A stretch of DNA of 64,000 nucleotides, taken from UHGV virus genome UHGV-0375936. One strand, given 5' to 3'. Origin of the DNA: a virus. A model generated the notes under the pieces. That model was given only the letters and a program-made list of their open reading frames with translations. It was not told the origin of the DNA and ran no database searches. How positions within the stretch are numbered: position 1 is the stretch's first letter; every line of letters begins with the position of its first letter. Made by a program: the position numbers and the translations under genes. This document shows, in pieces, positions 7,869-64,000 of this stretch.

Positions 7869-7876
7869 GATTTAAA

Positions 7877-12543: not shown

Positions 12544-12600
12544 TTTCTGCTCCTGTCAATACCCTCACACCGGAGGGTATCTTCTGGACTATTTGGGTGG

Positions 12601-12699: not shown

Positions 12700-12709
12700 A
12701 TTCCCTCTC

Positions 12710-30860: not shown

Positions 30861-30873
30861 GGAGAATTTTTTG

Positions 30874-33800: not shown

Positions 33801-35055
33801 TGCCAAAGCGTGTAAGCTGGGGATTGGTTCTCGTTCAGATTCTGCGGTTACGGATATCCCGTTAGTGATGGAGGAATCTGGGGAAACGGCGGTGGCGGCA
33901 ACGTTTAAGGATGTGTTGTTCAACGGCGAGGAAACCAACGCAGCGATACTCGACTTGATAGGCTGGGGTCCAAATAAAGACAAAATCTCTGCAAACCACG
34001 CGCCACGAGGTATGATTCGTTATCGTTACAACGTAAACACTCGGGTATTACGTTTAGCACTATCGTTCTCACAGTTCGGAACGACAACAGTTAAGCACCG
34101 CCAGTTGGAAATTGAATTTCCGTTTGATTTGGTGGATTACTTCACCGGTGACGGTGTAGGATTGTCGTTTAAAGAACTGTCTGCGAAATGCCGTGTAACG
34201 ATTAGCCACGCACTGATTGATCCGGTTACGACTAAAATCGATATTGATAAGTATCATTACCTACGCTCGTTATTTGAGTCGTATTTGGATGCATCTGTTG
34301 GTTATTTGGCTGATACCAAAGACGCCGACTTTAACCAGTCTGTGATTGACCCTGCGACTTATGAGATTAATCAGAAATACCGCGTTACCGAAAGCATTGC
34401 GCTGCCGACCGGTCAGGGAAGTGTTGCTGTTTCCCATGACGGTCAGTTACCTGCACAGTTCTTTGACCGTAAGCTGTCTCGCGGTGCTTTGATGGCCAAG
34501 AAAGGTGAACTTCATACTTCCTGGAACAATGAGTGGAGTACATCCAAAGCTGCCGCAAACCGGTATCGACATAAACTCATTCTGCGCTTTGCACAAGGTG
34601 CTGATAAACAACAGTACCGTGTTGCAAAAGTGACAGGAACGGTGAAGTGTAACTGGCCGGGCAAGGTGATTATCGGTGATGCTGGGAAGGACGCGTATGT
34701 ATCAGCTATCGATAGCGTGCCGTTTGCGCTTTCGACCAGCGCGGACACAGGTAAAGCAGTTACCCTTACGCCAAAGGATCTACGTGTAGGGCAGGACATT
34801 TATATTGTCTTAGAACCACCAGGCAATAATCCAGAAGGCTACGAGCTTAACTTTACCTGTTCGTTAGATGTCACTGACGAGAAAGGTGTCCGTCAAGACC
34901 AGCTCAATGCGCAGAGTTTCGAACTCCGTAGCGGCGAAAGTCAGTTCTTAATGGAGAAACGCAATCCGTACCACATCACGAGTAAAGCGTGGAAGTGGAT
35001 TCTGGCTGTACTGAAACGAGAACTTAACGGGAAGCAGTTAGGGGATCGTACTTAG
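30874..35055 (+). CDS. tail-fibre-like protein (paralog 2 of 4)
   Basis: 1394 aa from ATG after AAGGAGAA; shared N-terminal domain; repeat ATTAEKGVAKLKTGKGTETTGVAATPASL. Confidence 0.65.
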   Translation: MKAYPYDPRGTKAENHFLEERIIGSENNNDRVVILDHRPFFEDLVVRQPGSTTPLSRGVDYELQYQLTELDDSVAANVYCGVHLINPSIKGIVTFEGQMLGGTFYDPFVDILDELVKYLNNPVSADWLLLDGRPSLYPATPAATSWADLLNKKYLASAVHDIELKTDDANQLIKDKLAEVKALVTALGKEIEAFNYPAHIAETNPHKTTSAQINAHPVNLKTPDTFMAYGLKLKALTDELKAFRLPQSVIDTYISHWISSEVRGVFNCTVSGNRAQFRSKNGESEIIFANDGFTLKSNGSVVLAVGHLEGTGAGRYINWRAGKNTLRIESTGDALGMNKLTLNGNPLLTTTALMEYQQDPDAGSGGGGDPDDSKVYIEGRNGISFTGKGSRADPIVGTIDPTKATTAEKGVAKLKTGKGTETTGVAATPASLAPYSTDLSGYVAKTTMINGKPMNDGSRTITKADLGLGQANNTADVDKPLSTELNAALSGLADAGHHHDWSELGIYKASQSVYGIGRYATNQNGLVENRAVVPNILKELSARLDVVAAAIANAKEGSVTDFAAVKGAEWRFNSQGTAISVQDLKYFYLLNGTKADSTVTGSIDLQTTPMFNWFSPNNQIETTWPTGKVSAGKGINWTGIEEPPLMGFQSVPVGKTASQMGDQSVVTVLAKTRVRAHQSKLWVYAAGGGPVTVYINGIQAATGQSPLVAVHETSADVENYTVAVKAECSDTAKSAAVQFEIYDGDYPVYFSGPETRVELLQEFVTTHVGIRHYLYVNMLTSSLYSRTEPIQSVAVDPERGYIGYVDIVAGESYANKSVSFETTFDFGKSAEVSEHIDTRKAHGLSSVDWTLTDNPRFPLLNRAIAEPRTCIFRKTLTAGTGDVFHLVSRGLYTYAHNQNVKSSLQYVVIPEGATPYCWFTPFNPKENNAPTFEGSFVFDVDDVGGTQALTAAPDLVLCTSTQGSSVKRRYVRIDLTAKACKLGIGSRSDSAVTDIPLVMEESGETAVAATFKDVLFNGEETNAAILDLIGWGPNKDKISANHAPRGMIRYRYNVNTRVLRLALSFSQFGTTTVKHRQLEIEFPFDLVDYFTGDGVGLSFKELSAKCRVTISHALIDPVTTKIDIDKYHYLRSLFESYLDASVGYLADTKDADFNQSVIDPATYEINQKYRVTESIALPTGQGSVAVSHDGQLPAQFFDRKLSRGALMAKKGELHTSWNNEWSTSKAAANRYRHKLILRFAQGADKQQYRVAKVTGTVKCNWPGKVIIGDAGKDAYVSAIDSVPFALSTSADTGKAVTLTPKDLRVGQDIYIVLEPPGNNPEGYELNFTCSLDVTDEKGVRQDQLNAQSFELRSGESQFLMEKRNPYHITSKAWKWILAVLKRELNGKQLGDRT

Positions 35056-35093
35056 GACAGACTGCCTGCGGGCAGTTGTGTGTCCGTAGGTAA

Positions 35094-35130
35094 CCCCTCC
35101 CTGTAATGGGGAGGGGTATCCATTTTATTT
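35094..35130 (+). terminator. intergenic hairpin / possible attenuator
   Basis: CCCCTCCC-TGTAAT-GGGAGGGG hairpin with T-rich tail between fibre genes 2 and 3. Confidence 0.45.
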
Positions 35131-35149
35131 AAAAGTAGGAGTCTTTACG

Positions 35150-38100
35150 ATGCCGAGAGAAGACGCGGCGCAGTTTAACGGTACGCTAAGCACAACGACG
35201 TACCCTAACCGATTTAACGTGGTCATTCCGCCTGAAGGACCTTTTTATCGTATCGGATTAAAACTCACAGTAGCCGACGATACCGCGCCTAACGGACGTC
35301 GTACTCTGATTGAGGGGTTGGACTACTATTTAGGCTATTACTTTAAAGAACTCGCAGAAGCTGAACAAGATCAGATTTATGGCGGGTTTATGTTGCTTAC
35401 TGCAACAGAAATCGAATATGAGATTTTAGGGGTAGCACGTCAATACCGTGTACCGCAATCTGAAATCGGGAAGTTCTTAGTTCGTACTGACCTGAAAGAC
35501 CCACGTAACGTGGACTGGTCAGAGTTAATGGCGTATGCGCCAGTTATTCAACCTATCGATCCCCCTGCTAACTTAGAAGAAGCTATCCTGAGGGATGAGG
35601 TTGTTAAAGCGTTAAACGATATCCGTAAGAAAATCATTCAACGTTCAACAGAGTTAGATGCAGCGTTTACCGAAGTCACTAACCTGATTTACGAGAACGG
35701 TAAAAAGATTTTCGATGAAGAACTATACCAACACCACCTTAATCCTAACGCTCACCAGTATACGACCACTGATGTTGGTGCTCTTCCGGTTTTGGGACGT
35801 GCTGTTGACGCGACAAAAGCGTTTGGACTGACGATTGACCAGCTGGCTACGCTGATGGGTTCGGCGGGTATTGAGCAATCAGACGTTGATCAGTTAATAG
35901 GTGAAGCCCTCGGCACTGTTTACGGTCGTTGGGGCAGCACGAACGGTAACGAACTGACGTTTAAAACCGCAGGCGGACACATCATCAGTATCCGTGGTGA
36001 TAAGTGGTTAATTACCTCACCGCAACCGTTGGTGATTAAAGCAGACCAGGACAACAACGAATCGGGTTTGGCGGTTGAATTTAGTGCGGGGCTGAATACG
36101 CTTTGGGTACACTCTGGGACAGAACAAGATGTATTAGCGCCGGTTTACAACTCTGTGTATTTGGTTACACCAGAAATGGTGAACATGTACCTTACGTCTG
36201 TAACGTTACTTGAAGCAAATGCCTATTTCAAACCATCAGACACCGTAAAACCATACGGTACAGCGAAGCAGTCTAATCCGCTAACGTTGAACGCGAATAT
36301 CCCCACAGCAACCGAGTCGGTTTATGGGGTGTTTTCGATTACGAATATCGCAACCTCCGTAGCACTAGGCACTGCTATTTCCCAAAAGGCGGTGACCGAA
36401 TTAAAAGACCGGTTAGACTTGTACGTTGACGATGACTACACGGTTAACGGTAAAGGGTTTGTTAAGACAGGCGATAAAATGGTGTTAACCTTAACGAAAA
36501 CCGATTTCGGTATCGATAAGATGGATAACACCACGCCGATCGCTAAACCGGTAACAAAAGCGTTAGCGAATGTGCTGAAAAATAAAAGTTTGAAGGTGCA
36601 TACGCACACTACCGCCGATTTGGATAATGTCCCGATTGGTAGTGCGACCGTGGATGGTATCTTACAGCTGTGGGATGCGATTGATACCACGAATGATAAA
36701 GCCGTCACATCACGCCAAGGGTGGTTGTTCGCAAAAGAGATTAAGAAGGTCTCTGATAAACTGAATACCCTCTTGCCCGCATGGACAACGTCCGGGAGCA
36801 AATACACCAATAATTCGATATTGCCGATCTTGTCGATGGGTAATTACGAAGGTTATGGTAAAAACATGGATGCGCTCCAGATGGTTATAGGGGTACAACA
36901 AGGTAAGCTTTATGCTTTAATTAGTTCTAAATCTGCCCTTCCGGGAACTGAGGGTATTTATTACGCTGTTGCTGGGTTAAAAAACGACAAAAGTCTCGGT
37001 GAAATTTACAAAACAACTTTCCGTTATAAGCCGAAAGGGTTAGAGACGAATTATCCGGGGGTGGAACTAAAAGAAATTACCGTTACTGGCACCGAAGCAT
37101 TTATAGCGAAGGGCAGCGACGATAATTATTATTTAGTTAAACTGAACGGTTCAATGGATTACACCAAACATACCGATGTCAGGTTGGTAACTTTCTCAGA
37201 ATTTGTTTCAGAAACAACATGGGAATTTGTGCCGAATATGTTCATGGATCGTGTGGTCATAGCCGATAACGGCGTCTATGTTTTGCGTACGATGCTAATG
37301 GCCGATCTGAAAAACAATAGTCTGGTGGACTACATTAAGGATACTCCGCAACCTATGTTCCGTGTTGGGTTATTGCGACTTAATAAAACCGATCGGTTTG
37401 AACAGGTTGATTTAAGCTCTACACGAAAAATCGGTAAGTGTGCCGATTTGGTTGAACCTGGCGCGTTCGATGTAGATAATCCGAATACGAAGCGTCTTGC
37501 CTACTTCACTGCGGAAGGCAAAGCGTTGTGGACAGTGAATTTACAATTAACTAGAGGGGTGTCAAGATGGATAACGCCCGTTGTTAAGGACGGTCACTTG
37601 TTAACCGTCGGCGTGTCTGGCGTTTGTCTTGGTTTTTCTTCAACGAAAGGTACCACATTCGGGCCATGGAATGGTGCTTATCGTCTCGACCTATTAACCG
37701 GGGAGGTTGGGTTAGAGACAACTAACATCTTCCCAATCAAAATCGATACTACAGGTTGCTACTTAAAAGACGGAACAAAAATAGAGCTGAAATGGAAATG
37801 GGCTACTCGAAGTTCTGGCTATATGGCCGACAATAGAATCTGTGTCGGTGATATGGTTTATTCTTGCTGCTGTTCGACAGAAAAACAACTTGCACCGTCT
37901 CTCCATTACCAGAAACTCCCAGAAGGAGTTAGTTATCTGGACTATGTTAAGTTGAGTGCGGGGTATGAGGGGCAATCTACGTTTGAAAATCGGATAAACC
38001 CTGTGGTGGGTTCGGTGTGGAAACCGTCTATGACCTTCCCATTGTTCTTCCCAGGAACAAACAAAGTATGGCTTAAACATCAAAAAACGGCTTATTTCAT

Positions 38101-40336
38101 TGAAGCCGAATATGATAAAGATACGACTTATGGTTATCCTGGATACGGCGGGTTTGGACCAACATCCCGCCGTGTTGAAAAAAAAGCGAACGAATACGGC
38201 GTATTGACAAATATACCGCTGGTTGTTACGCCAGACATACCGAAAGGTCTACTAGATGGGGCTTACTTTATCGGTGCTGAAAGTAAACCATGTAAAGTTG
38301 TTTACGGTACCACTACGGTGGCTAGTGATCGGTTGTCTATCGATGCGGCAGAATGGGCGAAGTTGACTAATATTGTTCAGTCCAGCCAGTTCTCTGGGGC
38401 TTCTAACGGCAACGCCTATGAGCGGATTAGCGTAGCTAAGACCAAAAAGAACAACTACAGTTTGTCCTTTTGGGTGCTTGGTCAAACGATGTCTGGTGGT
38501 CCGCTTTGTATCGCGATAGTGAGTCTTATCTATAAAGACACTGACGGGGTAAATAAGTTTGCTTTTTACTTCTTTCAGGTAAAACCGACTATAACCAACG
38601 GGGTCATAAGGTTCGTTAGTTCGGAAGCGAGAATGATGACGTTCAGGGAAAAAGTGGCCAGTAACGCCATTAATCTCTCACCCACAGCTTTTAATGGTGA
38701 ACTTAAACAACGCTCCGGTCAAGTTTTCCTTTATTCGCAAGACGGACAAAAGTTCAGATTCTCAATACATAACCTGGTTGGCGGGAATCTTGTAGGATCA
38801 GAGATTTCTTTTGCTTTTGGGATAAACTTGACTAAAAAAGGAGAATGGTTTACCGGCGAAATTCATCGGGCGTGGGGCTATACGTATACGCTGAATAATA
38901 CATCTGAAGTCTATATACCCGATCTCTCGGGCATCGCGCTATTGACTTGTAACTCGGAAGATTTAAACGAGTTGTATCTCGGTGGCGAACAGTATAGAAT
39001 CTCTGATTTGTTTAACAAAAAATATACTGTTATCGATAAGATTATTATTGGCGGCGTACAAACACAGAGCGGTTGGAATTTCTATCTGACGGAGGAAACC
39101 GAGTTAAGTTTTGGAAATAAAAGATATACCGTTCCAAGATGGTCCGTTGATTTAAGCGATGAATTCCCGACTAATCACGCTAACCAGACATTCTACGTTT
39201 ATGCTGAAGTGGTCGGTTCTACTGCCCAATACCGCATCGGTTTAGAGCAGTTAGCTGATACCTCGTCGAGACTGTTTGTTGGGACAGTAACCACTGATTC
39301 GAACCGTATTACGGATATCAGTATCGATAAAGTAAAACGGTTAGGTCGTGTAAAAGAGCTGGAAAATCATGCCTCGGTTGTTGATCAGCACGATGTGGCG
39401 CAGGCGTTCGACAGGAAAACTGGTCCACTATTAACAGTGGTTAATAAACCCGTTAAAGCCATTACAGCATCTGCGAGCAAGGGTGCTGGGTATGTCGATG
39501 GCCAGAAATGGAATACGTTGTCCGGGATTGCAACGCGGCCCAGGTTGCCGGTACAGGAAACCTATTCAGGTTATAAAAGTATCAGCAGGGTGGCGTATGA
39601 GAACTGCGCTGACCAGTTCTGGCAGAAAGCGGTTGCTGCGAACGTTGCAGCGGCTACTGCTTCTGAGAACAAACAAGCAGCAACCGCGAACATGAAGTGG
39701 TTGGGTGCGTATACGAAACCGACTACCGGCGAGTATGCATATCTGGCATTGAGTCTGCGTGTTAAAGTACCTGGCGATCCTGGTACTACTAATCGTCGAC
39801 TGAAAATCAGGCTTGCGGCCCCGACAGGTATAACTCAAGTTCGTTACGGGCTAAATCAGTCTGGCGGTACGATGACTGAACAGACAGTAACGCTAACTGC
39901 TAACAGTTACCTGGAAAAAGAACACGCGGGATTTAAGCCAGCCGCCGAAGTCCGCCTTCATGCTACGTTTGTCATTCCAAAAAATGAATACGATAGCTAC
40001 CGGACCAAATTTGGTGCTGTTCAGCTGATTGACGTTGAGACGAACACTGTCATTAAACAGACAGATATCGACACACCGTTTATCGTGTACACCGCCACAG
40101 AGCAAGCGGCACAATCTGGTTTGGTGTATAAAGCGGTTAAGAGTCAGTTTCGTCAACTCCCGGCTCAACCTGTCGTCATTGTAACTGATGGACAGACAGG
40201 GACTACACCACCGGTGAAAACCGCATATTCTGACGGCACGTTAACGGTCTACGTGGCAACCACGTACGATGCGGTTAACCCAGCACAAACTCGCGATATC
40301 GATAAGCTCCAGTTCAATCTTATGTTTACATCTTAA
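35150..40336 (+). CDS. tail-fibre-like protein (paralog 3 of 4)
   Basis: 1728 aa; AGGAG RBS; shared N-terminal domain (PPEGPFYRIGL...GLDYYLGYY). Confidence 0.65.
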   Translation: MPREDAAQFNGTLSTTTYPNRFNVVIPPEGPFYRIGLKLTVADDTAPNGRRTLIEGLDYYLGYYFKELAEAEQDQIYGGFMLLTATEIEYEILGVARQYRVPQSEIGKFLVRTDLKDPRNVDWSELMAYAPVIQPIDPPANLEEAILRDEVVKALNDIRKKIIQRSTELDAAFTEVTNLIYENGKKIFDEELYQHHLNPNAHQYTTTDVGALPVLGRAVDATKAFGLTIDQLATLMGSAGIEQSDVDQLIGEALGTVYGRWGSTNGNELTFKTAGGHIISIRGDKWLITSPQPLVIKADQDNNESGLAVEFSAGLNTLWVHSGTEQDVLAPVYNSVYLVTPEMVNMYLTSVTLLEANAYFKPSDTVKPYGTAKQSNPLTLNANIPTATESVYGVFSITNIATSVALGTAISQKAVTELKDRLDLYVDDDYTVNGKGFVKTGDKMVLTLTKTDFGIDKMDNTTPIAKPVTKALANVLKNKSLKVHTHTTADLDNVPIGSATVDGILQLWDAIDTTNDKAVTSRQGWLFAKEIKKVSDKLNTLLPAWTTSGSKYTNNSILPILSMGNYEGYGKNMDALQMVIGVQQGKLYALISSKSALPGTEGIYYAVAGLKNDKSLGEIYKTTFRYKPKGLETNYPGVELKEITVTGTEAFIAKGSDDNYYLVKLNGSMDYTKHTDVRLVTFSEFVSETTWEFVPNMFMDRVVIADNGVYVLRTMLMADLKNNSLVDYIKDTPQPMFRVGLLRLNKTDRFEQVDLSSTRKIGKCADLVEPGAFDVDNPNTKRLAYFTAEGKALWTVNLQLTRGVSRWITPVVKDGHLLTVGVSGVCLGFSSTKGTTFGPWNGAYRLDLLTGEVGLETTNIFPIKIDTTGCYLKDGTKIELKWKWATRSSGYMADNRICVGDMVYSCCCSTEKQLAPSLHYQKLPEGVSYLDYVKLSAGYEGQSTFENRINPVVGSVWKPSMTFPLFFPGTNKVWLKHQKTAYFIEAEYDKDTTYGYPGYGGFGPTSRRVEKKANEYGVLTNIPLVVTPDIPKGLLDGAYFIGAESKPCKVVYGTTTVASDRLSIDAAEWAKLTNIVQSSQFSGASNGNAYERISVAKTKKNNYSLSFWVLGQTMSGGPLCIAIVSLIYKDTDGVNKFAFYFFQVKPTITNGVIRFVSSEARMMTFREKVASNAINLSPTAFNGELKQRSGQVFLYSQDGQKFRFSIHNLVGGNLVGSEISFAFGINLTKKGEWFTGEIHRAWGYTYTLNNTSEVYIPDLSGIALLTCNSEDLNELYLGGEQYRISDLFNKKYTVIDKIIIGGVQTQSGWNFYLTEETELSFGNKRYTVPRWSVDLSDEFPTNHANQTFYVYAEVVGSTAQYRIGLEQLADTSSRLFVGTVTTDSNRITDISIDKVKRLGRVKELENHASVVDQHDVAQAFDRKTGPLLTVVNKPVKAITASASKGAGYVDGQKWNTLSGIATRPRLPVQETYSGYKSISRVAYENCADQFWQKAVAANVAAATASENKQAATANMKWLGAYTKPTTGEYAYLALSLRVKVPGDPGTTNRRLKIRLAAPTGITQVRYGLNQSGGTMTEQTVTLTANSYLEKEHAGFKPAAEVRLHATFVIPKNEYDSYRTKFGAVQLIDVETNTVIKQTDIDTPFIVYTATEQAAQSGLVYKAVKSQFRQLPAQPVVIVTDGQTGTTPPVKTAYSDGTLTVYVATTYDAVNPAQTRDIDKLQFNLMFTS

Positions 40337-42657: not shown

Positions 42658-42806
42658 CTAAGCCCTCCAGTGGTAGTATGTCTATTACGCAATAACCGAG
42701 TTAATCGTACGGGTTTACTACTGAGTTTCAAGTTACCGGTAGGCAATGGTGCGGTGGTTTCTATACCCTGAATGTCCGTTTGACCGTGAAATAATTGGAG
42801 CAATCA

Positions 42807-43694
42807 ATGAAGAATGATTTACATTTAGCATACAAAACAATTTTCAATCATCCACTTCACATTTCTTCCCCTGATTCCGTACGTGCACACTTAGCAGATG
42901 AAGTTCGTCTGCTGACTCAGTTGCCGGGCGAATGGCCTAAAGTACGCGGACGTTTCTTTACCGATCGTAAAAACTATCGTGTAGAAAATACGTTTAAGAT
43001 TCGTGATCTGACGGCAGAAAGTGTGGTGGTCTTTACCGGTGACTCCGAGTTGCGTGGTAAACTGGTTGCGGGTAAATATTTCTTTAGTGACGGGATTTTG
43101 AATAACTCCGTAGATATGGAATTGTTCTTTACCCCATTTGAAGAAATGGGCGCAAAACCGGTTGCCCGTCGTTGGTGGTCACCGGATTACTTAGGCTCGT
43201 TCCCGTATTTCTTTACCCTGGTAACACCAGAAACGAAGAACTATTTCGATACGGAATCGTATATCGAAATTGAAGGGTACGAAGCGTTAGGGATTAATTG
43301 CTTAGCGGATTTAATGGCGTATAGCTATAAGTTCGTGTGGGATCGTGAACGTTCCGTGTGGGTTGCCCTGACGGATGAACATGAAATCACAAAACGCATC
43401 CGTAAGCCTTGGATGCAGCATTTGATTCAAACGCGTATTGGCGAGCATCCGTCAACAGAAGCGGATCTGGCAAAACTCCTTAGTTTCTTAATGACGAAAG
43501 TCACGTTAACTGACGAAGAGAAAGCAGCAGTGTCGGCGGTGTTGGACCGTAACGTAACGTTAGCGGATTTAGAACGTTTAAATGTCCGTTATAAAGACCT
43601 TAACCGTATTTTGGAAGCGTATAACTCTCCATTCTTGTTAACCCCTGGTGCTAACGTAGACGACGATCCTTTGTTCGCCATTGATTATATTTAA
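42807..43694 (+). CDS. hypothetical protein, candidate RiPP accessory
   Basis: ATG at 42807 with GGAG RBS; 296 aa between precursors and radical SAM genes; no motif recognised. Confidence 0.55.
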   Translation: MKNDLHLAYKTIFNHPLHISSPDSVRAHLADEVRLLTQLPGEWPKVRGRFFTDRKNYRVENTFKIRDLTAESVVVFTGDSELRGKLVAGKYFFSDGILNNSVDMELFFTPFEEMGAKPVARRWWSPDYLGSFPYFFTLVTPETKNYFDTESYIEIEGYEALGINCLADLMAYSYKFVWDRERSVWVALTDEHEITKRIRKPWMQHLIQTRIGEHPSTEADLAKLLSFLMTKVTLTDEEKAAVSAVLDRNVTLADLERLNVRYKDLNRILEAYNSPFLLTPGANVDDDPLFAIDYI

Positions 43695-43715
43695 AAACGA
43701 CCGGAGTCACCTGCA

Positions 43716-44639
43716 ATGACAACCAATGCAGAACCAAGGTTATCGAATCGTTTATACGATAAACCCACCGTATTGTCCGTAGTCGCTACGTCCAAGTGTA
43801 ACCTGGATTGTAGCTTCTGCGGTGGAGCCTATTACATGAATCGTGAAGATTCTCCGCGAGAGTTTCAACGTGAGCGAATTTTGGAAGCGCTGGAAGCTAA
43901 TCCAACCATTACCGAAATTCAGTGGACGGGTGGTGAGCCATTACTGGCAACCCGTAAAATTGAGGCGTTTGTTGACGAATTAAAAGTGATTCGTCCAGAA
44001 CTCAAACACCAGTTGTATACCAATGGCTTAAAGATGCGTAAATCGCATCTCCCGTTGCTAAAACAGTTTGACAATGTCTACGTTAGCATCGATGGGTTTA
44101 AGTCGTCTGAGCGCCCGTTTATGCGCTTTATTGACGAAGGCTGTTACGAAGCACTGGAAACGATCTACGAGCTGGATAATGTCCAGACTTGGGGTGTCCT
44201 GACACGGGACCGTTTAGGGGACAAACGCTGGCACGAAGATATTATTCAGCTGCACAGCGCGATTTACCATTACGGTTTCCGTGCAATGACGTTACTCTTA
44301 GATGCGAAAATGCCAAAACCTTTATCGCCTGACCACGTCATGAACTTTATTTACGGCTACTATCAGGTTCAGGATAACATTGAACGACTGAATGTAGTAA
44401 ATAGTCGTGAATGCGGCTTTACAGTAAGTAAAGTGTTTGAAGAAGGGTGTAACGTTTGCAGCGAAAGTCTTTGGATTAATGCAGACGGCGGTGAGCACCA
44501 ACTCCAGAATGCACCTAACGTTCTGGAATCGGGATGTAACCAACTGGCCTTCTCTATCGGTGTAGAGGCGTACGAATATATTCGTCGCGTAGTGATGGCA
44601 GGGCGTAATAGAGGGGCGGCAAATGAGTCAAGTAAATGA
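43716..44639 (+). CDS. radical SAM enzyme
   Basis: CNLDCSFC (CxxxCxxC) near N-terminus, GGEPLL SAM-binding motif, four more Cys in the C-terminal third. Confidence 0.8.
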   Translation: MTTNAEPRLSNRLYDKPTVLSVVATSKCNLDCSFCGGAYYMNREDSPREFQRERILEALEANPTITEIQWTGGEPLLATRKIEAFVDELKVIRPELKHQLYTNGLKMRKSHLPLLKQFDNVYVSIDGFKSSERPFMRFIDEGCYEALETIYELDNVQTWGVLTRDRLGDKRWHEDIIQLHSAIYHYGFRAMTLLLDAKMPKPLSPDHVMNFIYGYYQVQDNIERLNVVNSRECGFTVSKVFEEGCNVCSESLWINADGGEHQLQNAPNVLESGCNQLAFSIGVEAYEYIRRVVMAGRNRGAANESSK

Positions 44640-45945
44640 ATTCCCTAAGCAGTTAACGTATCAGATCGTAACCAACCTTTCGTGTAACCTGGACTGCGAA
44701 TATTGTTACGAACGTAAGTACCCGCGTAACAACAAAGCGGCGGATATTGTTGATTTCTTACACGCCTGTTTTGAACGTGATAAAAACGAACCGAATGTTG
44801 AAGTTATTATCGACATTATCGGTGGTGAGCCGTTCATGCAGCCTAAACTGCTGCTGGCTGCGTTTGAAACCGCTGAGCAGTTGTGTAAAGAACACAACCG
44901 ACCGTTTATGTTTAGTATTTCCACGAACGGAACGCTGTTAGATCGTCCGTTGAACCGTGAGATCGTAGAACGTTGGAAAGATAAACTTTCGGTTGGGGTT
45001 TCGATTGACGGCTTACCTGAGTCCCATGACCGTTATCGTATCTTCACAACAACACGCCAGGGTTCTTACGAAGCCGCAGTACGTGGCTATAACTACTTAA
45101 AAGAGGTTGGCATTGCAGAGCTCGGCGTAAAAGCAACCTTTACGTTAGAAACGCTGCCGTTCTATGCTGCGGGGATGAAGTCATTAATTGACATTACTGG
45201 CGGTGGGACAATTTCTGGAAACGTAACTTTCGAAGACGTTATGCCGCGTAGCATGGCGACATCAATCGCTTTACAGATGATGGATGTGATCGATTATTGG
45301 GTTGAGAAAGGATTACACACCAACCCACGTAATATCTTATCGCACATCATTCCAGAAGGGTTGGATTTCGATACGATTTGGGAACCGAACTGGCGTGACC
45401 AGTTACTGTATAATGACACCGTACGGTTGAACCCAGAACGTTTACGTCCGTTCTGTGGGACGTTAACGCACATGACGTGCTTAGGATTTGACCGTAAGAT
45501 CTTTGGCTGTAACCGCTTTATGTCAACGGTAACGTCGCGTTCTGCGGTGTTTGAGTTGGTAGGTCGGGAATTCGTCAGTCTGGACAACGGTAAGCTGCTA
45601 GAAGAGATTCAAACGCAATATACCAACTACCCAGAGACCTGTTTAGGTTGTCCGATGAAACACGCTTGTGGTAGCTGTGCTGCGGCTTCTTACGAGAACG
45701 GGGAAGGAACGTTAGAAGACCGTAAGGCGTATCACGCTGAACGACGTCAGTGCGGCTGGACGACAGCGAAACTGATGGTGGCGGAATACTGGAAACAGAA
45801 GATGGGTACGACGTCAGCAAAAGCGTTCCATGACACGAGCATGTGTTATTGCCCACGCTGTGTTCGTGAACGTGCCCAAAAGGAAAAATTATTAAGAGAA
45901 GCCAAAGATGAAACCAATTCTGATCAACAATATTACGAAGCGTAG
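44623..45945 (+). CDS. radical SAM enzyme with SPASM-like domain
   Basis: CNLDCEYC, IGGEPF, STNGTLL, and C-terminal CLGCPMKHACGSCAA Cys cluster; 17-nt overlap with upstream radical SAM gene. Confidence 0.8.
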   Translation: MSQVNEFPKQLTYQIVTNLSCNLDCEYCYERKYPRNNKAADIVDFLHACFERDKNEPNVEVIIDIIGGEPFMQPKLLLAAFETAEQLCKEHNRPFMFSISTNGTLLDRPLNREIVERWKDKLSVGVSIDGLPESHDRYRIFTTTRQGSYEAAVRGYNYLKEVGIAELGVKATFTLETLPFYAAGMKSLIDITGGGTISGNVTFEDVMPRSMATSIALQMMDVIDYWVEKGLHTNPRNILSHIIPEGLDFDTIWEPNWRDQLLYNDTVRLNPERLRPFCGTLTHMTCLGFDRKIFGCNRFMSTVTSRSAVFELVGREFVSLDNGKLLEEIQTQYTNYPETCLGCPMKHACGSCAAASYENGEGTLEDRKAYHAERRQCGWTTAKLMVAEYWKQKMGTTSAKAFHDTSMCYCPRCVRERAQKEKLLREAKDETNSDQQYYEA

Positions 45946-60381: not shown

Positions 60382-60427
60382 GAAAAAATATAAAAACCGT
60401 AGGATGGACTAAGTCCATCCTACGGTT
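60381..60427 (-). terminator. Rho-independent terminator
   Basis: Long stem CCGTAGGATGGACT / AGTCCATCCTACGG with A-rich run on plus strand. Confidence 0.55.
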
Positions 60428-60431
60428 TAAA

Positions 60432-62552
60432 TTAAATAACTACCCAGCTTTTACCATCGGAACCAATCTGCATTAGCGTAATACTTTCATTGGTCTCAAT
60501 GGGTTTGGCAAGACCTTCTGTCCCACTCTTTGGAGTGATGAGAACGTTTGAATTTTCCGGTTTAACGGTGATCTTACCAGCCTTATTTGCCACGATCTGT
60601 ATATTTCTACCCACACTATATTCTAGATCAGGAATAGTAAGTTGGCCGCCACGGTTGGTGGCTGGGAAATACACATAAGACGACACATCTTCCTCAGATA
60701 ACACTATACCACCAGAATCACGATTGACCGAGATCTCAAACTTAGAAATATCGATATCGTAGGCAGTAACTTTCGTAATATCCGTCAGAACCAATTCGTT
60801 CAAATCGGTATTAGCTGGACTGTTCGCCAGATCAAACGGAGTGCCATTCTTGCCGTCAAGCACAGGTGTGACTTTGATTTTATTGTCACCCGGATAAATG
60901 ATTTCAAGCGTATGCCAGTTATTATCGTACGCACCAAAAGTTCCTAATTGCGCATTCTGCTTTTTATGATGCATCAGATAAAGATTCGTAGCGTCGGTCT
61001 GTAAGAAAAAAGACATTAGGTACGGGTTCGTCTTAGCCACACCAGCGTCAGCAAGTGTAGTACCAGAAGGTAGGTCGGACGCGGAAATACGCCAATAAAG
61101 TCCTAATCCGAAACGATCTGCTGCTAAATCACCTTTTAGTCTAAAAGTAACGGTCAGACGTCCACCGTAACGTAGCATGTCCGCAGCAGATGTCATTGAC
61201 TTAGTTACATTCCAAGGTTTCATCGTTACAGCCTTTCTTAATTCGACGAAATGCCCGTTTCCATCCTCAGAATCTTGCACGGTTACGTTACAATCAACGA
61301 TATTGTTCCAACCTTGCTCTTTCAGGGAACCATCCCCACGACGTCCGTTATAACCCACAGACTCTACTAATGGGGTATAGCTTCTTACCACATTCATATT
61401 GTCTTTGGATCTCTTAGTGTCGTTCTTCGTCAGGAACATTGCACCAATCGCTGTTCTTGATAATATCTCGGCAGCTATTCTCTCTGAGATAATACCGCGT
61501 CGAGCCCAAGAACTGAAATGGCTATTCCTTTCTGCAGACGTCCAGTTTTTAGCACTACGGGAGGCAGCGCCGTAGTAGGTAGCACCGGTGATATCAGGAT
61601 CGTCAGTGGGATCATTAGTCGGTACACGTTGGCCATTATCGTCGTACATGAATGGGACAAAAAAGATATTTTTTTGTTCATTGTTACGATAATTACCGTA
61701 TATGGTTTCATATTGAGCAGGATATTTTTCCTTCCAATAATAGGTAGTGTCCCCGCAGATCCATGGTACTTCGGCGGTGTCGTACTCGGGCATCTGAGAG
61801 AGATGGTCAGAGAGATCAGTTCGGAAACGCTCTACCATTGCGTTAAATAACGCTGGTTGTTGTGCGTATTGTACTTTAGTCAGATCATACTCTCCCTGCA
61901 TCCACACTACAGCCAAGAGTTTATTTTTAGGATTAACTTCCAGAGCTTTTTTGGTCCGGCTAACTAAATCTTTATAAAGTGGTTTCTCCACCCCCCATAG
62001 CATTGACGACTCAGTGGCTCCTGTGGCTTCATCGAAGGTACCTTCTGCACCACCCGTGAAAGCAGAACCGCCGCGTGCGCAGGGTACTAGTAAGATACCG
62101 GCGTTCTTAGGAATATACGGGAGAAGACGCTTCGCGATATGTAGACCTTGACCCACACATCCGTATTCACCTTTGCTCAAATCGGCATTGGGATGCGAGT
62201 ATCTGGACATGTCTTGCACGTCGTGCAGACAATGATCCGCTGGAATGACGTCGTTATACTTACAATCAGCCCCGTTAGGCGTTACCTTCGCACGGCGCGC
62301 CATCTGTTTAATTCGCGGATCGGGAGCGTCCAACGTCGCCGGTAGAGGCAACCCTTCACCATAACTCATCGCATTAGATTGCCCGGCTATAGGAATCACG
62401 AAGTAATACTCCGGCTCCGTCGTGCCCTGAAGTTTTGCAATATCAATTTTATATTCTTTTTCTTCCTTAGAAAGAAGAACTAACGCACCTTTGAGATCGC
62501 CAGAGAAATTGTCGAGTTCATGGATACGTTTCTTTCCAATTGGCTGACTCAT
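60432..62552 (-). CDS. tailspike/fibre-like protein with SGNH/SASA-type esterase motif
   Basis: 706 aa; N-terminal FVIPIAGQSNAMSYGEG matches the GQSN block of SGNH/sialate-O-acetylesterase-like hydrolases. Confidence 0.5.
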   Translation of the reverse strand: MSQPIGKKRIHELDNFSGDLKGALVLLSKEEKEYKIDIAKLQGTTEPEYYFVIPIAGQSNAMSYGEGLPLPATLDAPDPRIKQMARRAKVTPNGADCKYNDVIPADHCLHDVQDMSRYSHPNADLSKGEYGCVGQGLHIAKRLLPYIPKNAGILLVPCARGGSAFTGGAEGTFDEATGATESSMLWGVEKPLYKDLVSRTKKALEVNPKNKLLAVVWMQGEYDLTKVQYAQQPALFNAMVERFRTDLSDHLSQMPEYDTAEVPWICGDTTYYWKEKYPAQYETIYGNYRNNEQKNIFFVPFMYDDNGQRVPTNDPTDDPDITGATYYGAASRSAKNWTSAERNSHFSSWARRGIISERIAAEILSRTAIGAMFLTKNDTKRSKDNMNVVRSYTPLVESVGYNGRRGDGSLKEQGWNNIVDCNVTVQDSEDGNGHFVELRKAVTMKPWNVTKSMTSAADMLRYGGRLTVTFRLKGDLAADRFGLGLYWRISASDLPSGTTLADAGVAKTNPYLMSFFLQTDATNLYLMHHKKQNAQLGTFGAYDNNWHTLEIIYPGDNKIKVTPVLDGKNGTPFDLANSPANTDLNELVLTDITKVTAYDIDISKFEISVNRDSGGIVLSEEDVSSYVYFPATNRGGQLTIPDLEYSVGRNIQIVANKAGKITVKPENSNVLITPKSGTEGLAKPIETNESITLMQIGSDGKSWVVI

Positions 62553-62555
62553 CTA

Positions 62556-63068
62556 CTACTCTCCAAAAGTTAAGATTTTATTGTCAAACGTCAACACGAC
62601 AGAATCATCACCGATGCCACACGGTGTTTCATCTGGGCCGAAAACCACCACGGAGAACTGTCCTTTATAAGCGATGGAATTCGGAGCGATGCTAAGCGTT
62701 ACCGCGTCTTTACCTACCGTGAACGACTGGTCGGTTAAATCGTCGGTTTGTAAGTTAGCACCACAAACAGCATTGACGGATTCGATAAGATCGTGTGCAT
62801 TAAACCCTTCACCTCTTACTTTTACCAGAATAGGTTGTTGGTTTAACCACCGCTCTGCGGTTAAACGGTTGTAGTAGATTTGCAACGTTCTGTTTCCAGG
62901 ACGTTTAATCTTTACAATGGCAGTGGAGTCACGATCCATTTCATCACTGGTTTTTACGTCACTGACTTCAACCTCGTTCTCTTGCAAGTCAAGTTGGAGG
63001 TCATGGTTAACCAGTGAAATAACCATGTTAAGTGAAGTTAGTGATAAATCTGGTGTGAATTTTTCCAC
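62556..63068 (-). CDS. putative virion protein, paralog family B
   Basis: RTLQIYYNRLTAER and DLIESVNAVCGANL resemble motifs of 47191/47787/50993/51471 proteins. Confidence 0.4.
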   Translation of the reverse strand: MEKFTPDLSLTSLNMVISLVNHDLQLDLQENEVEVSDVKTSDEMDRDSTAIVKIKRPGNRTLQIYYNRLTAERWLNQQPILVKVRGEGFNAHDLIESVNAVCGANLQTDDLTDQSFTVGKDAVTLSIAPNSIAYKGQFSVVVFGPDETPCGIGDDSVVLTFDNKILTFGE

Positions 63069-63166: not shown

Positions 63167-63670
63167 TTAGCTAATTCTCAAATCACGCAGTGCGCCTGTC
63201 GATTTCATCACGTTTTGGAACGCGCCACTGATGTTATTAGTCCAGTAATAATGCTGTCCGTTAATAACCTGCTGATAGGTCAGCGCGCAGGTGTTGCCAC
63301 CTAAATTTACGGTAATGTTAGAGGCTCTGCCTCCTTGTAAGTAAACCGCTAAAGTAGGCTTTGCGTTGGCAACTATCGTCGTTAACTGTAACTCAATACC
63401 TACTAAAGTTCCCACCCCGCAGTTACCCGCGTTTTGAATGGTTCCCTGATTTTTCTGGTTTAACGGCCAGCTTGGTCCTACCGCGCCCCATTTCTTACCT
63501 AAAGAATCGCTATATGCAGCGGTTGCAATTTTACAGCCCATAGATCTTCCCACCATTTGACTCATCATAAAAGGTCTACCCAATCCTAATTTACTACCAG
63601 CAGCGCTCATCCATTGTTCGCCCGTTTCGTTCTTAGCCGAAGAACCGACCCATCCAGATGCTACCCCCAT
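63167..63670 (-). CDS. hypothetical protein
   Basis: 167-aa ORF, Gly/Asn-rich. Confidence 0.5.
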   Translation of the reverse strand: MGVASGWVGSSAKNETGEQWMSAAGSKLGLGRPFMMSQMVGRSMGCKIATAAYSDSLGKKWGAVGPSWPLNQKNQGTIQNAGNCGVGTLVGIELQLTTIVANAKPTLAVYLQGGRASNITVNLGGNTCALTYQQVINGQHYYWTNNISGAFQNVMKSTGALRDLRIS

Positions 63671-63686: not shown

Positions 63687-64000
63687 TTAAACACGTGAAC
63701 CGTATATTGCACCTACTGCGTCCCATCTTGGCGCATTACCAGTAACAGCTTTACCAGCTGCTCCGCCGTTATATTCTGTACCGTTACCATGAGTATTACA
63801 TCTTCCTCCAGCAGCACCGACATTACCACCCGAACCGCCTGTATATGCACTAAGAGACCCCTCACCAACAGATCCTTTACCAGGAGCGGAAATAGTACCA
63901 GCAGTTGCACCGGAACTCATATGAGAGGAAGACCCACCAGCACCGAATGGGCGACCACCGCCACCACCAAATATTAGTCTACCCCTGTTACCGCCGCCAC
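63687..64000 (-). CDS. Gly-rich protein, partial (N-terminus beyond window end)
   Basis: Minus-strand frame stays open upstream of the track Met to the window edge (…GGGNRGRLIFGGGGRPFGAGG…). Confidence 0.4.
   Translation of the reverse strand, partial: GGGNRGRLIFGGGGGRPFGAGGSSSHMSSGATAGTISAPGKGSVGEGSLSAYTGGSGGNVGAAGGRCNTHGNGTEYNGGAAGKAVTGNAPRWDAVGAIYGSRV

What the first reader, a model, noticed from the sequence alone, without database searches (positions are those of the whole stretch)
60432..62552. Fibre/tailspike-like protein with an SGNH/SASA-type esterase motif
A 706-aa protein carries the GQSN block (IAGQSNAMSYGEG) typical of SGNH-family carbohydrate esterases such as sialate O-acetylesterases. 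In phages such domains occur in tailspikes that deacetylate O-antigen or capsule, so it may be an enzymatic receptor-modifying adhesin.
Basis: partly seen in the sequence, partly recalled or inferred. Interest (0 to 1): 0.55.

Follow-up and report, generated by a model that had tools for sequence, protein, structure and literature searches.

The report
Jumbo-phage sialic-acid esterase with tail-fibre anchor
This gene encodes a well-known type of phage enzyme that strips acetyl groups from sialic-acid sugars, but here, in a giant phage, it carries the same short N-terminal docking peptide as that phage group's tail fibres, so it is probably displayed on the virus particle rather than serving a bacterial host.

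Summary
The 706-aa ORF (60432-62552, minus strand) and its GQSN block are real. It is a clear homologue of NanS/NanS-p sialate 9-O-acetylesterases: PDB 3PT5 E=9e-123, 6YP6 lectin domain E=3e-39, and Ser59 and His345 invariant in 85 relatives. The host genome is new for this family. It is an SPN3US-like jumbo phage, whereas all phage-record homologues I inspected are 33-90 kb temperate phages. The capsid-binding DUF1737 domain of Stx-phage NanS-p is replaced by a 44-aa N-terminal peptide. That peptide is homologous to the N-termini of tail fibres and spikes of related jumbo phages (HMM E=2.7e-12, next best 0.62; tblastn E down to 1e-7). The gene follows a DUF7941 paralogue by 3 nt and ends the fibre operon at a strong terminator. 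An extra C-terminal domain has a T4 gp9/gp10-type fold. Composition is ameliorated and dN/dS is about 0.4. Best reading: a virion-tethered lectin-esterase accessory protein, with tethering inferred, not shown. In sister phages the anchor-enzyme junction is a G9/G11 tract that breaks the fusion. Verdict: new variant of a known kind, moderate interest.

The parts
60432..62552 (-). Complete CDS (706 aa plus stop) of a NanS-p-family sialate O-acetylesterase with a fibre-type N-anchor
62421..62552 (-). N-terminal anchor peptide, residues 1-44 (MSQPIGKKRIHELDNFSGDLKGALVLLSKEEKEYKIDIAKLQGT). It is homologous to the N-termini of jumbo-phage tail fibres and spikes and is disordered in the monomer model.
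   Evidence: BLAST against SPN3US gp123 (44% over 1-43) and the sister-phage 1497-aa fibre (34% over 1-41). HMM built without the esterase scores E=2.7e-12. tblastn against all phages gives E from 1e-7 to 8e-3, all hits being N-termini of 'tail fiber protein'. pLDDT about 30.
61458..62420 (-). SGNH type II (SASA) catalytic domain, residues 45-365
   Evidence: 3PT5 E=9.4e-123 and 58% identity; 66-67% identity to Stx-phage NanS-p including 933W L0105
62373..62384 (-). Block I GQSN: Gln58 (oxyanion hole) and Ser59 (nucleophile, codon 62376-62378)
   Evidence: Invariant in 85 aligned homologues. Corresponds to NanS Gln18/Ser19. Coordinates.
61518..61529 (-). Block V equivalent RNSH: catalytic His345 (codon 61518-61520) and Arg342
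   Evidence: R342 and H345 are invariant. Corresponds to NanS His301 and the RSSH/RASH block of NanS-p.
61356..61457 (-). Interdomain linker, residues 366-399, specific to this clade and of low model confidence
60723..61355 (-). Lectin-like jelly-roll domain (DUF6645), residues 400-610. F481, Y486 and F516 occupy three of the four aromatic positions of the proposed phi24B sugar-binding site.
   Evidence: 6YP6 E=3e-39 and target TM-score 0.90; aromatic mapping; pLDDT above 90
60435..60722 (-). Extra C-terminal all-beta domain, residues 611-706, with a T4 gp9/gp10 'XD'-type fold. It is matched in 82 of the 120 listed homologues (mainly the longer Salmonella-type prophage proteins) and is absent from phi24B gp84.
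60384..60428 (-). Intrinsic terminator (16-bp stem, 3-nt loop, T-run) starting 4 nt after the stop codon; end of the fibre transcription unit
   Evidence: RNA fold -28.4 kcal/mol, z=-8.5
62556..63068 (-). DUF7941 paralogue (170 aa). Its tandem TAG TAG stops lie immediately before the esterase ATG, and a GGAG lies upstream of that ATG. It is the presumed partner or adaptor of the anchor.
   Evidence: Pfam PF25613 E=1.3e-13 and PHROG 'virion structural protein'; junction sequence; the same gene order holds in all relatives
63167..63670 (-). Gp38_N-type tail-fibre adhesin (167 aa), an upstream member of the same fibre module
63687..64000 (-). 3' part of a second, glycine-rich gp38-type adhesin gene that runs off the window end
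   Evidence: Open frame to the window edge; 260-aa Gp38_N+GP38 gene at this position in L020 and L014

Best explanation
The ORF encodes a four-module protein: (i) a 44-aa N-terminal docking peptide, (ii) a NanS-type SGNH sialate 9-O-acetylesterase with a Ser59-His345 dyad and Gln58 in the oxyanion hole, (iii) a DUF6645 jelly-roll lectin domain, and (iv) a gp9/gp10-type beta-sandwich. The enzyme-lectin core is the NanS-p module of temperate enterobacterial phages. In phi24B that module is tethered to the capsid by an N-terminal DUF1737 domain. In this SPN3US-like jumbo phage the tether has been replaced by the docking peptide that related jumbo phages use at the N-terminus of their tail fibres and spikes. 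The gene is expressed as the last cistron of the fibre operon, immediately after a dedicated DUF7941 paralogue. The protein is therefore most likely hung on the virion, at the fibre or peripheral-baseplate network via DUF7941, as an accessory enzyme. There its lectin domain would bind sialoglycans and its esterase would remove O-acetyl groups. I consider O-acetylated mucin sialic acids in the gut the most likely target, giving reversible, receptor-destroying-type adhesion in mucus. De-O-acetylation of a sialylated host capsule or O-antigen is the second possibility. Shown: enzyme family, fold, catalytic residues, anchor homology, gene order, terminator, amelioration and purifying selection. 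Inferred: virion attachment, DUF7941 as docking partner, substrate and biological role.
For: Enzyme identity; S59, Q58, R342 and H345 invariant in 85 sequences; catalytic residues per PMC9063846. Anchor: 44% identity over positions 1-43 to SPN3US gp123 and 34% to the sister phage's 1497-aa T4-like long tail fibre. An HMM of seven fibre or spike N-termini, built without the esterase, hits residues 1-45 at E=2.7e-12, against 0.62 for the next best of 604 six-frame segments. tblastn of 48 aa against 2.3 Gb of phage DNA returns 25 jumbo-phage hits, all N-termini of 'tail fiber protein' next to the DUF7941 gene. Anchor-bearing proteins are genuine fibres or spikes by PHROG, and the anchor also carries other cargo, namely Ig-like plus propeller-like P0126 in the same syntenic slot. 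Cassette: a DUF7941 gene lies directly upstream in the window, L001-3, L020, SPN3US, Asesino, SPAsTU and KpHz_2, and one small ORF away in L014 and L022. DUF7941 proteins are abundant in Goslar virions, form filaments and fit PhiKZ peripheral-baseplate density. Family precedent for virion display: phi24B gp84 decorates the capsid via DUF1737; P0006 fuses the same core to a lambda-type tail-fibre N-domain after a tail-fibre assembly gene; Salmonella Mu-like prophages place it right after the fibre and its assembly gene. The C-terminal fold matches fibre, tailspike and baseplate modules. The gene is an ameliorated long-term resident (GC3 42% against 54-73% in prophage homologues) under purifying selection (dN/dS 0.27-0.49). 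A strong terminator closes the operon.
Against: There is no proteomic or structural evidence that this protein, or any anchor-bearing protein of this lineage, is in virions. [quoted passage not shown] That conflicts with the baseplate model of the Goslar preprint, which is itself unreviewed and partly based on AlphaFold. The anchor has pLDDT about 30 in the monomer model, so no structural support was obtained. In sister phages a G9 or G11 tract separates anchor and enzyme, so an untethered 663-aa esterase may be the main product there. NanS is monomeric, whereas fibres are trimeric. Substrate specificity is extrapolated from 58-67% identical enzymes. The fourth aromatic residue of the phi24B lectin site is missing. 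The partner fibre has no sialidase domain.
Confidence: 0.6

Rival explanations
1. Soluble, non-structural enzyme, the classical NanS-p view. The esterase is simply made late and released at lysis, modifying mucin or freeing Neu5Ac in the surroundings. The N-terminal similarity to fibres would be a recombination scar from insertion into the fibre operon, with no docking function.
For: NanS-p enzymes are active as free recombinant proteins and support growth on Neu5,9Ac2. G9/G11 relatives encode an anchor-less 663-aa esterase ORF. SPN3US gp122 was not found in virions. Nothing here shows virion association directly.
Against: The anchor is conserved (91-100% identity in relatives 91-97% identical overall; 93% in the poly-G lineage) and begins exactly at residue 1 as in genuine fibres. 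The same anchor and slot hold other receptor-binding-type cargo. A phage that kills its host gains nothing from feeding a lysogen, and no lysogeny genes were seen in the ORFs I scanned. phi24B shows that even the 'classical' NanS-p is structural.
Confidence: 0.2
2. True receptor-binding or receptor-modifying protein aimed at the bacterial surface. It would de-O-acetylate a sialic-acid-containing or otherwise O-acetylated capsule or O-antigen of the host to expose the receptor for the gp38-tipped long fibre.
For: SGNH and sialate-esterase-like tailspikes that deacetylate capsule or O-antigen are established or predicted in Acinetobacter and other phages. The 2021 review raises this possibility for NanS-p. 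The gene sits beside the adhesins. The lectin domain shows the highest dN/dS (0.49), as expected for a host-range determinant.
Against: The same enzyme-lectin-C-terminal core is spread through prophages of many Salmonella serovars and E. coli, most of which are not known to carry sialylated surface glycans (my own knowledge, not tested). The catalytic domain is very close to enzymes proven on Neu5,9Ac2 and mucin. No sialidase accompanies it. The host is unknown.
Confidence: 0.15
3. Capsid or head decoration, as for phi24B gp84. The anchor would dock onto head-associated DUF7941-family proteins rather than the baseplate.
For: phi24B precedent. The SPN3US paralogue family tentatively including gp122 was found in tailless particles.
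Against: DUF1737 is absent. The same anchor heads a 1497-aa T4-like long tail fibre with gp38 adhesins, which must attach to the tail. PhiKZ DUF7941 proteins fit peripheral-baseplate density.
Confidence: 0.05

Closest known systems
NanS-p prophage sialate O-acetylesterases (phi24B gp84 = vb_24B_21, 933W L0105/z1466; PDB 6YP6)
   Same: Same catalytic SASA/SGNH domain (about 66-67% identity), the same GQSN and R-x-S-H blocks, and the same DUF6645 lectin domain (37% identity, target TM-score 0.90). The phi24B protein is also a virion protein.
   Different: No DUF1737 capsid-binding domain; a 44-aa fibre-type anchor takes its place. There is an extra C-terminal gp9/gp10-like domain. The SSP motifs proposed as self-processing sites in phi24B gp84 are not present in the linkers. 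The gene sits in a fibre operon of a jumbo phage rather than the Q-stx-lysis late region of a lambdoid prophage. One lectin-site aromatic residue is missing.
E. coli NanS/YjhS (PDB 3PT5)
   Same: 58% identity, target TM-score 0.87, Ser/His dyad without a catalytic Asp, Gln in the oxyanion hole.
   Different: NanS is a single-domain, monomeric chromosomal enzyme. It has no lectin domain, no anchor and no C-terminal module.
Longer prophage versions of the family (for example P0075 in Salmonella Mu-like prophages, P0005 in a lambdoid prophage, P0006 fused to a tail-fibre N-domain)
   Same: Same catalytic + lectin + C-terminal beta-sandwich core (52-60% identity, 93-97% coverage). Several lie in tail-fibre modules.
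   Different: Different, highly variable N-termini: DUF1737, phage_tail_N, or unassigned segments from 26 to about 260 aa before the GQSN block. They sit in temperate phages and have much higher GC.
SGNH or sialate-esterase-like tailspikes of lytic phages (for example Acinetobacter phages Phab24 gp164, DMU1 gp20, Aristophanes; epsilon15 tailspike esterase domain)
   Same: A virion-borne carbohydrate esterase attached through an N-terminal phage-specific anchor.
   Different: No detectable sequence relationship to those proteins was found here. They are trimeric tailspikes acting on the host capsule or O-antigen. The present protein is of the NanS lineage and carries its own lectin domain.
DUF7941 'fiber cloud' proteins of chimalliviruses (Goslar gp22/gp23, gp86/gp92/gp161; PhiKZ gp126/gp127)
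   Same: A DUF7941 module associated with carbohydrate-binding or carbohydrate-hydrolysing cargo in jumbo phages.
   Different: In Goslar the DUF7941 module is fused to the cargo. Here DUF7941 is a separate upstream gene, and the cargo carries a short anchor peptide instead. No esterase cargo is reported there.
Haemagglutinin-esterases of influenza C virus and betacoronaviruses (HEF/HE), a functional analogy only
   Same: A virion-displayed lectin plus an SGNH 9-O-acetylesterase acting on sialoglycans (fold statement).
   Different: Not homologous at the sequence level. In HE the lectin is inserted within the esterase fold. They belong to enveloped animal viruses. The analogy is an inference.

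Membership tests
SGNH/SASA sialate O-acetylesterase (NanS lineage) | SGNH type II fold of the catalytic domain | tested here: met
   phmmer 3PT5 E=9.4e-123; AF2 model against 3PT5 Foldseek E=7e-34, target TM-score 0.87; Pfam SASA above the gathering score
SGNH/SASA sialate O-acetylesterase (NanS lineage) | Catalytic Ser in the GQSN block and His in the R-x-S-H block (dyad; Gln in the oxyanion hole; no catalytic Asp required) | tested here: met
   G57, Q58, S59, N60, R342 and H345 are invariant in 85 sequences; residue roles from PMC9063846 and PMC10462455.
SGNH/SASA sialate O-acetylesterase (NanS lineage) | Esterase activity on Neu5,9Ac2, O-acetylated mucin or pNP-acetate | not testable with these tools
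   Inferred only from 58-67% identity to characterised enzymes
NanS-p (prophage three-domain esterase) | C-terminal lectin-like jelly-roll domain (DUF6645) with the aromatic putative sugar site | tested here: met
   PF20350 E=4.4e-31; 6YP6 E=3e-39, target TM-score 0.90. Three of four aromatic positions are retained (F481, Y486, F516) and the fourth falls in a 1-residue deletion.
NanS-p (prophage three-domain esterase) | N-terminal DUF1737 (capsid-binding) domain | tested here: not met
   No PF08410 hit at E<=1. Residues 1-44 match only the three close jumbo-phage relatives among 120 homologues. The alignment to phi24B gp84 shows no similarity before residue ~45.
NanS-p (prophage three-domain esterase) | Encoded in the late region of a temperate (lambdoid) phage | tested here: not met
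   The window is an SPN3US-like jumbo phage. The gene is in the tail-fibre operon. The 60 phage records sampled evenly from 348 are 33-90 kb temperate phages plus one 3.9-kb fragment.
Jumbo-phage 'DUF7941 + N-anchored receptor-binding protein' cassette (defined here from SPN3US gp122-gp123, Asesino gp139-gp140, KpHz_2, L001) | Conserved ~45-aa N-terminal motif (M..p.KK+hH-L..a.Gd....hhL.S.-.K-YKh.h..L) starting at residue 1 | tested here: met
   HMM E=2.7e-12 with the esterase excluded from the model; tblastn E=1e-7 to Asesino gp140; phmmer against 1.84 billion representatives gives 9 true hits, all at positions 1-4x
Jumbo-phage 'DUF7941 + N-anchored receptor-binding protein' cassette | Gene directly downstream of a DUF7941 gene on the same strand | tested here: met
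   3-nt gap in the window; the same order in 10 other loci
Jumbo-phage 'DUF7941 + N-anchored receptor-binding protein' cassette | Physical presence in the virion and binding of the anchor to DUF7941 or the baseplate | not testable with these tools
   No proteomics are available for this lineage. SPN3US gp122 was not detected in virions, while Goslar DUF7941 proteins are abundant.
Trimeric tailspike/tail-fibre proteins | Trimeric beta-helix, coiled-coil or fibre shaft | tested here: not met
   The AF2 model shows only globular SGNH, jelly-roll and beta-sandwich domains joined by linkers. There are no fibre-repeat Pfam or PHROG hits. Oligomeric state was not tested.

The most novel reading that the evidence does not exclude
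The NanS-p enzyme-lectin core may be a portable, virion-displayed 'receptor-destroying' device for moving through O-acetyl-sialylated mucus, a phage counterpart of influenza C HEF and coronavirus HE. Different phage lineages would plug it onto whatever attachment point they have: DUF1737 on capsid hexons, a lambda-type fibre N-domain, or the jumbo-phage fibre anchor. In some jumbo-phage lineages the tethered and free states would be switched by a hypermutable or frameshift-prone poly-G tract placed exactly at the anchor-enzyme junction.
Probability: 0.25. Interest if true: 0.75.

Novelty: new variant of a known kind. Interest (0 to 1): 0.55.

Why it matters
NanS-p has been treated for a decade as a lysogenic-conversion 'moron' that feeds EHEC on mucin sialic acid. 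The 2021 review asks explicitly whether it instead serves the phage itself, and a 2026 preprint shows it is a capsid protein in phi24B. Here the same core is long resident, ameliorated and under selection in a jumbo phage with no obvious lysogen to benefit. It is also wired to the tail-fibre attachment system. This is independent comparative evidence that the module works for the virion. It also gives a concrete, testable docking rule for accessory receptor-binding proteins of SPN3US-like jumbo phages: a DUF7941 gene followed by a 45-aa anchor. Their peripheral baseplate and fibres are still unresolved by cryo-EM. That rule could help in engineering cargo onto jumbo phages and in annotating their receptor-binding proteins.

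Tried and rejected
1. Megablast of the gene against 50,697 phage records found no match. The lineage is absent at the DNA level, and only radical-SAM genes of the window match SPN3US-like phages, at about 72%.
2. One search was my own error: I gave protein residue numbers as DNA coordinates. It is uninformative.
3. NCBIfam has no model for this protein. Pfam has nothing for residues 606-706.
4. I tested whether the Mu-like Salmonella esterase (P0075) shares its N-terminus with its own fibre, as in the jumbo phage. It does not (E=10), so 'anchor copied from the cognate fibre' is not a family-wide rule.
5. I tested whether the partner long fibre is an endosialidase, which would pair logically with the esterase. 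Only Phage_fiber_2 and the Peptidase_S74 chaperone were found, so this was rejected.
6. The anchor profile against the 5.8-billion word-indexed database gave only four short fragments. The exhaustive representative search was more useful, but P0127 in it is a spurious internal-repeat hit.
7. The SPN3US supplements gave no proteomic information on gp123 or gp124.
8. The esterase anchor shows no similarity to DUF7941 itself (E=6.9), so the anchor is not a split-off piece of DUF7941 detectable by sequence.
10. The sigma-70 promoter scan was at background (11 found against 9.3 expected). No promoter is claimed.
Full report
OBSERVATION. The motif IAGQSNAMSYGEG is present, with GQSN at residues 57-60 (nt 62373-62384). 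It is not a chance motif. Pfam gives SASA (PF03629, E=6.9e-12) and DUF6645 (PF20350, E=4.4e-31). PHROG 143 scores E=3.9e-251. Against PDB sequences, residues 45-364 match E. coli NanS/YjhS (3PT5) at E=9.4e-123, and residues 400-610 match the C-terminal domain of phi24B NanS-p (6YP6) at E=3e-39.

WHAT THE PROTEIN IS. It has five segments.
- Residues 1-44 form an N-terminal peptide found only in three close relatives among the 120 best homologues.
- Residues 45-365 are the catalytic domain.
- Residues 366-399 are a low-confidence linker.
- Residues 400-610 are the lectin-like jelly roll.
- Residues 611-706 form an extra all-beta domain.

An AF2 model built from 85 homologues (mean pLDDT 79) superposes on 3PT5 (target TM-score 0.87, 58% identity) and 6YP6 (0.90). 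The lectin domain also resembles the sialic-acid-binding domain of V. cholerae sialidase (2W68, target TM-score 0.72).

NanS uses a Ser19/His301 dyad with Gln18 in the oxyanion hole and has no catalytic Asp (PMC9063846). NanS-p proteins share the GQSN and RSSH/RASH blocks (PMC10462455). In the 85-sequence alignment G57, Q58, S59, N60, R342 and H345 are invariant.

Of the four aromatic residues proposed for the phi24B lectin site (Y510, Y515, Y540, F611), three are aromatic here (F481, Y486, F516). The fourth falls in a one-residue deletion.

- a capsid spike and a tailspike;

In BFVD it matches tail-fibre and Mtd-N-domain proteins. This domain is matched in 82 of the 120 listed homologues, mainly the longer Salmonella-type prophage proteins. 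It is absent from phi24B gp84.

WHERE IT SITS. The window is not a Stx or lambdoid phage.
- Only 13% of a 24-kb stretch matches any deposited phage, at 72% identity. The match covers the radical-SAM genes of SPN3US-like jumbo phages.
- The window's giant ORFs are the paralogous 'virion structural proteins' of those phages.
- The neighbouring 170-aa gene (62556-63068) is a DUF7941 protein whose homologues all lie in 197-270 kb phages.

By contrast, 348 phage records hold a NanS-p catalytic domain. The 60 sampled evenly down the ranking are 33-90 kb temperate phages, plus one 3.9-kb fragment. Close relatives of the protein (97%, 91% and 90% identity) exist only in metagenomic assemblies, one on a 226-kb contig.

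In that sister phage the gene order is: DUF7941 (188 aa), a 1497-aa fibre, Gp38_N adhesin, Gp38_N adhesin, DUF7941 (170 aa), the esterase, then hypothetical genes. The window shows the same order from the adhesins onward. The DUF7941 gene ends in TAG TAG immediately before the esterase ATG, with a GGAG upstream of that ATG. Four nucleotides after the esterase stop codon there is a 16-bp-stem terminator (-28.4 kcal/mol, z=-8.5). The esterase is thus the last cistron of the tail-fibre unit.

THE KEY RESULT: A FIBRE-TYPE N-TERMINAL ANCHOR. Residues 1-43 align position for position with two other N-termini. One is SPN3US gp123 (RefSeq 'tail fiber protein', 156 aa; 44% identity). The other is the sister phage's 1497-aa fibre (34% identity).

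The evidence that this is real and specific:
- An HMM built only from seven such N-termini (SPN3US, Asesino, SPAsTU, the 1497-aa fibre and three KpHz_2 proteins), with the esterase left out, finds esterase residues 1-45 at E=2.7e-12. The next best of 604 six-frame segments of the window scores E=0.62.
- tblastn of the first 48 residues against all 2.3 Gb of phage records returns 25 jumbo-phage hits (E from 1e-7 to 8e-3). Every one is the start of the gene that follows the DUF7941 'virion structural protein'. The only other hit is a Bacillus phage antirepressor at E=0.8.
- The anchor-bearing proteins are genuine receptor-binding proteins. The 1497-aa protein hits dozens of tail-fibre PHROGs, carries Phage_fiber_2 and the S74 chaperone, and is followed by gp38 adhesins. 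A KpHz_2 member hits tail-spike and EPS-depolymerase families.
- An exhaustive search of 1.84 billion representatives finds the anchor only at extreme N-termini. It also finds the anchor on a different cargo, P0126, which has Ig-like domains plus a propeller-like C-terminus. P0126 occupies the same syntenic slot (fibre, assembly protein, DUF7941, small ORF, cargo) in another phage.

The anchor is therefore a modular adaptor for fibre-module proteins, and the slot after the second DUF7941 gene swaps cargo.

WHAT IS KNOWN ABOUT THE PARTS.
- NanS-p enzymes of Stx phages are proven Neu5,9Ac2 and mucin O-acetylesterases. They have been interpreted as aids to lysogen nutrition, and whether they serve the phage itself was left open (PMC8065619).
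- A 2026 preprint shows that phi24B gp84 is a structural protein. Its DUF1737 domain forms hexamers plugged into capsid hexons, and the enzyme part appears to be cleaved off later.
- A second 2026 preprint reports that DUF7941 proteins are restricted to chimalliviruses and are very abundant in Goslar virions. They form head-to-tail filaments, fit PhiKZ peripheral-baseplate density, and are sometimes fused to carbohydrate-active domains. It mentions no esterase.
- Against this, SPN3US gp122, the orthologue of the DUF7941 gene here, was not detected in wild-type virions. It was tentatively grouped with a paralogue family regarded as head proteins (PMC5694885). The location and role of this particular DUF7941 protein remain uncertain.

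FAMILY-WIDE PATTERN. The N-terminus is the variable part of the family, ranging from 26 to about 260 residues before the GQSN block. Three contexts are seen:
- DUF1737 in E. coli Stx-phage versions;
- a complete lambda-type 'prophage tail fibre N-terminal' domain (PF08400, E=9e-49) in P0006, encoded next to a tail-fibre assembly gene at a prophage end;
- unassigned N-termini in Salmonella Mu-like prophages, where the gene follows baseplate J, gp48, the fibre and the assembly protein, and in a lambdoid prophage between the lysis genes and terminase.

The swap point is always just before the conserved PEYYFVIP strand.

The jumbo-phage gene is not a recent import. Its GC is 45.1% and GC3 42%, matching the window (44.5%), whereas prophage homologues have GC 53-60% and GC3 54-73%. 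dN/dS against the 91% relative is 0.39 overall (catalytic 0.27, lectin 0.49, C-terminal 0.38). With dS only 0.12, these figures are rough.

MECHANISM (best reading, confidence 0.6). The protein is a virion-tethered accessory enzyme. The anchor docks it to the same acceptor that holds the fibres, probably via its dedicated DUF7941 paralogue at the baseplate periphery. The lectin domain binds sialoglycan and the SGNH domain removes O-acetyl groups. The C-terminal gp9/gp10-like module is either a further docking or oligomerisation element or a second glycan-binding module.

I favour O-acetylated mucin sialic acids as the target, for two reasons. The catalytic domain is 58-67% identical to enzymes proven on that substrate. 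The same core is also spread through prophages of many Salmonella serovars and E. coli, most of which are not known to carry sialylated surface glycans (my own knowledge, not tested). De-O-acetylation of a host capsule or O-antigen remains possible.

Shown here: family, fold, catalytic residues, anchor homology, synteny, terminator and selection. Inferred: virion location, DUF7941 partnership, substrate and benefit.

Rivals are a soluble enzyme released at lysis (0.2), a host-surface-directed receptor-modifying protein (0.15) and head decoration (0.05).

AN UNEXPECTED SIDE FINDING IN RELATIVES. In a lineage whose esterase is 93% identical (225-kb contigs from several samples), the anchor-enzyme junction is a homopolymer...CTTCAA-G(n)-TGACGGAACC... 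The tract is G9 in three loci and G11 in two, and one contig ends inside a run of at least 10 G. With n=9 the anchor frame stops (QGGG-TGA, a 45-aa ORF seen on 8 contigs), and the 663-aa esterase continues in the -1 frame. Only n=7, 10 or 13, or a -1 slip, would give the fused protein LQGGGVTEPDYY, the architecture found in the window. The window and its closest relatives have GGCACGACG or GGCGTGACG at this point and are stably fused. This may be phase-variable or frameshift-controlled tethering; hypermutable poly-G tracts are known in Campylobacter phages (Sorensen et al. 2021, cited in PMC10877375). It may equally be homopolymer assembly error. Raw reads would decide.

COMPARISON AND NOVELTY. 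As an enzyme this is an ordinary, well-understood family member. Three defining features of NanS-p are met (fold, dyad, lectin domain) and two are not (DUF1737, temperate-phage late-region context). Virion-borne SGNH or sialate-esterase-like tail proteins are also a known kind.

What is new:
- the occurrence of the NanS-p core in a jumbo phage;
- the replacement of its tether by the fibre anchor;
- the DUF7941-plus-anchor cassette rule itself, which I did not find described in the papers read;
- the poly-G junction in relatives.

I rate this a new variant of a known kind, interest 0.55. It is useful, testable evidence on what NanS-p is for and on how SPN3US-like phages mount accessory receptor-binding proteins. 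It is not a new kind of system.

Noticed in passing
L014:6127-6135, L016:924, L017:471 (G9); L018:6127, L019:3801 (G11); L015 contig end (at least 10 G). The corresponding window position, about 62420-62426, has no run.: In 93%-identical relatives the anchor-esterase junction is a poly-G tract whose assembled length (9 or 11) breaks the fusion into a 45-aa or 61-aa anchor ORF plus a 663-aa esterase ORF in another frame. G10 or a -1 slip would restore the fused protein. This could be phase variation or programmed frameshifting controlling tethering, or it could be homopolymer assembly error.
   Followed up: partly
window 26538-40336 (+): Three consecutive giant paralogous ORFs (1440, 1394 and 1728 aa) match PHROGs 7557, 8078, 7449 and 2163 ('virion structural protein'). 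By size and annotation they look like counterparts of the SPN3US gp168-170 'baseplate/tail fiber candidates' (paralogue family C in PMC5694885).
   Followed up: partly
window 42795-45945 (+): The radical-SAM gene pair is the only part of a 24-kb stretch that matches deposited phages at the DNA level (about 72% to SPN3US-like phages). It is far more conserved than its surroundings.
   Followed up: no
window 63167-63670 and 63687-64000 (-); L001:8283-9384: Two T-even-type gp38 adhesin genes (Gp38_N; one with glycine-rich GP38 motifs) follow a T4-like long fibre carrying an S74 chaperone domain, all inside an SPN3US-like jumbo phage. This is a mosaic of T-even adhesin modules on a chimallivirus-type fibre anchor.
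   Followed up: partly
window 62553-62558 (-): The DUF7941 gene ends with tandem stop codons TAG TAG placed directly before the esterase ATG, with a GGAG upstream of that ATG. This is a tight, probably translationally coupled junction.
   Followed up: no
L011 (Serratia phage KpHz_2, MN871445.1) 4079-14525: An unannotated jumbo phage carries at least three DUF7941 ORFs and three anchor-bearing large ORFs (591, 732 and 756 aa) in a row, including two adjacent DUF7941 genes before one cargo gene. This is a multi-cassette array of receptor-binding proteins.
   Followed up: partly
L004:1015-3768 (P0006, ENA metagenome contig): A 917-aa protein fuses a complete lambda-type 'prophage tail fibre N-terminal' domain and a coiled-coil-like spacer to the NanS-p catalytic, lectin and C-terminal core. 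It is encoded after a tail-fibre assembly gene at a prophage-chromosome boundary.
   Followed up: partly
L022:6001-8133 (P0126) and P0125: The same anchor (60-69% identical) and the same slot after DUF7941 hold a different cargo, Ig-like (Rha78A_N-type) domains plus a propeller-like C-terminus, in another metagenomic jumbo phage. The slot is a cargo-swapping locus.
   Followed up: partly
L014:5696-5965; L019:3412-3639; L022:5354-5977: Some relatives have an extra small ORF (75-207 aa, no Pfam family) between the DUF7941 gene and the anchor-bearing gene. It is absent from the window.
   Followed up: no
[not shown]
   Followed up: no
PV089521.1 (Arthrobacter phage MrSmee) 19077-19496: A 'minor tail protein' of an actinophage shows weak similarity (28.5% over 131 aa, E=2e-5) to the catalytic domain. 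This looks like an independent case of a SASA-like esterase in a tail protein.
   Followed up: no
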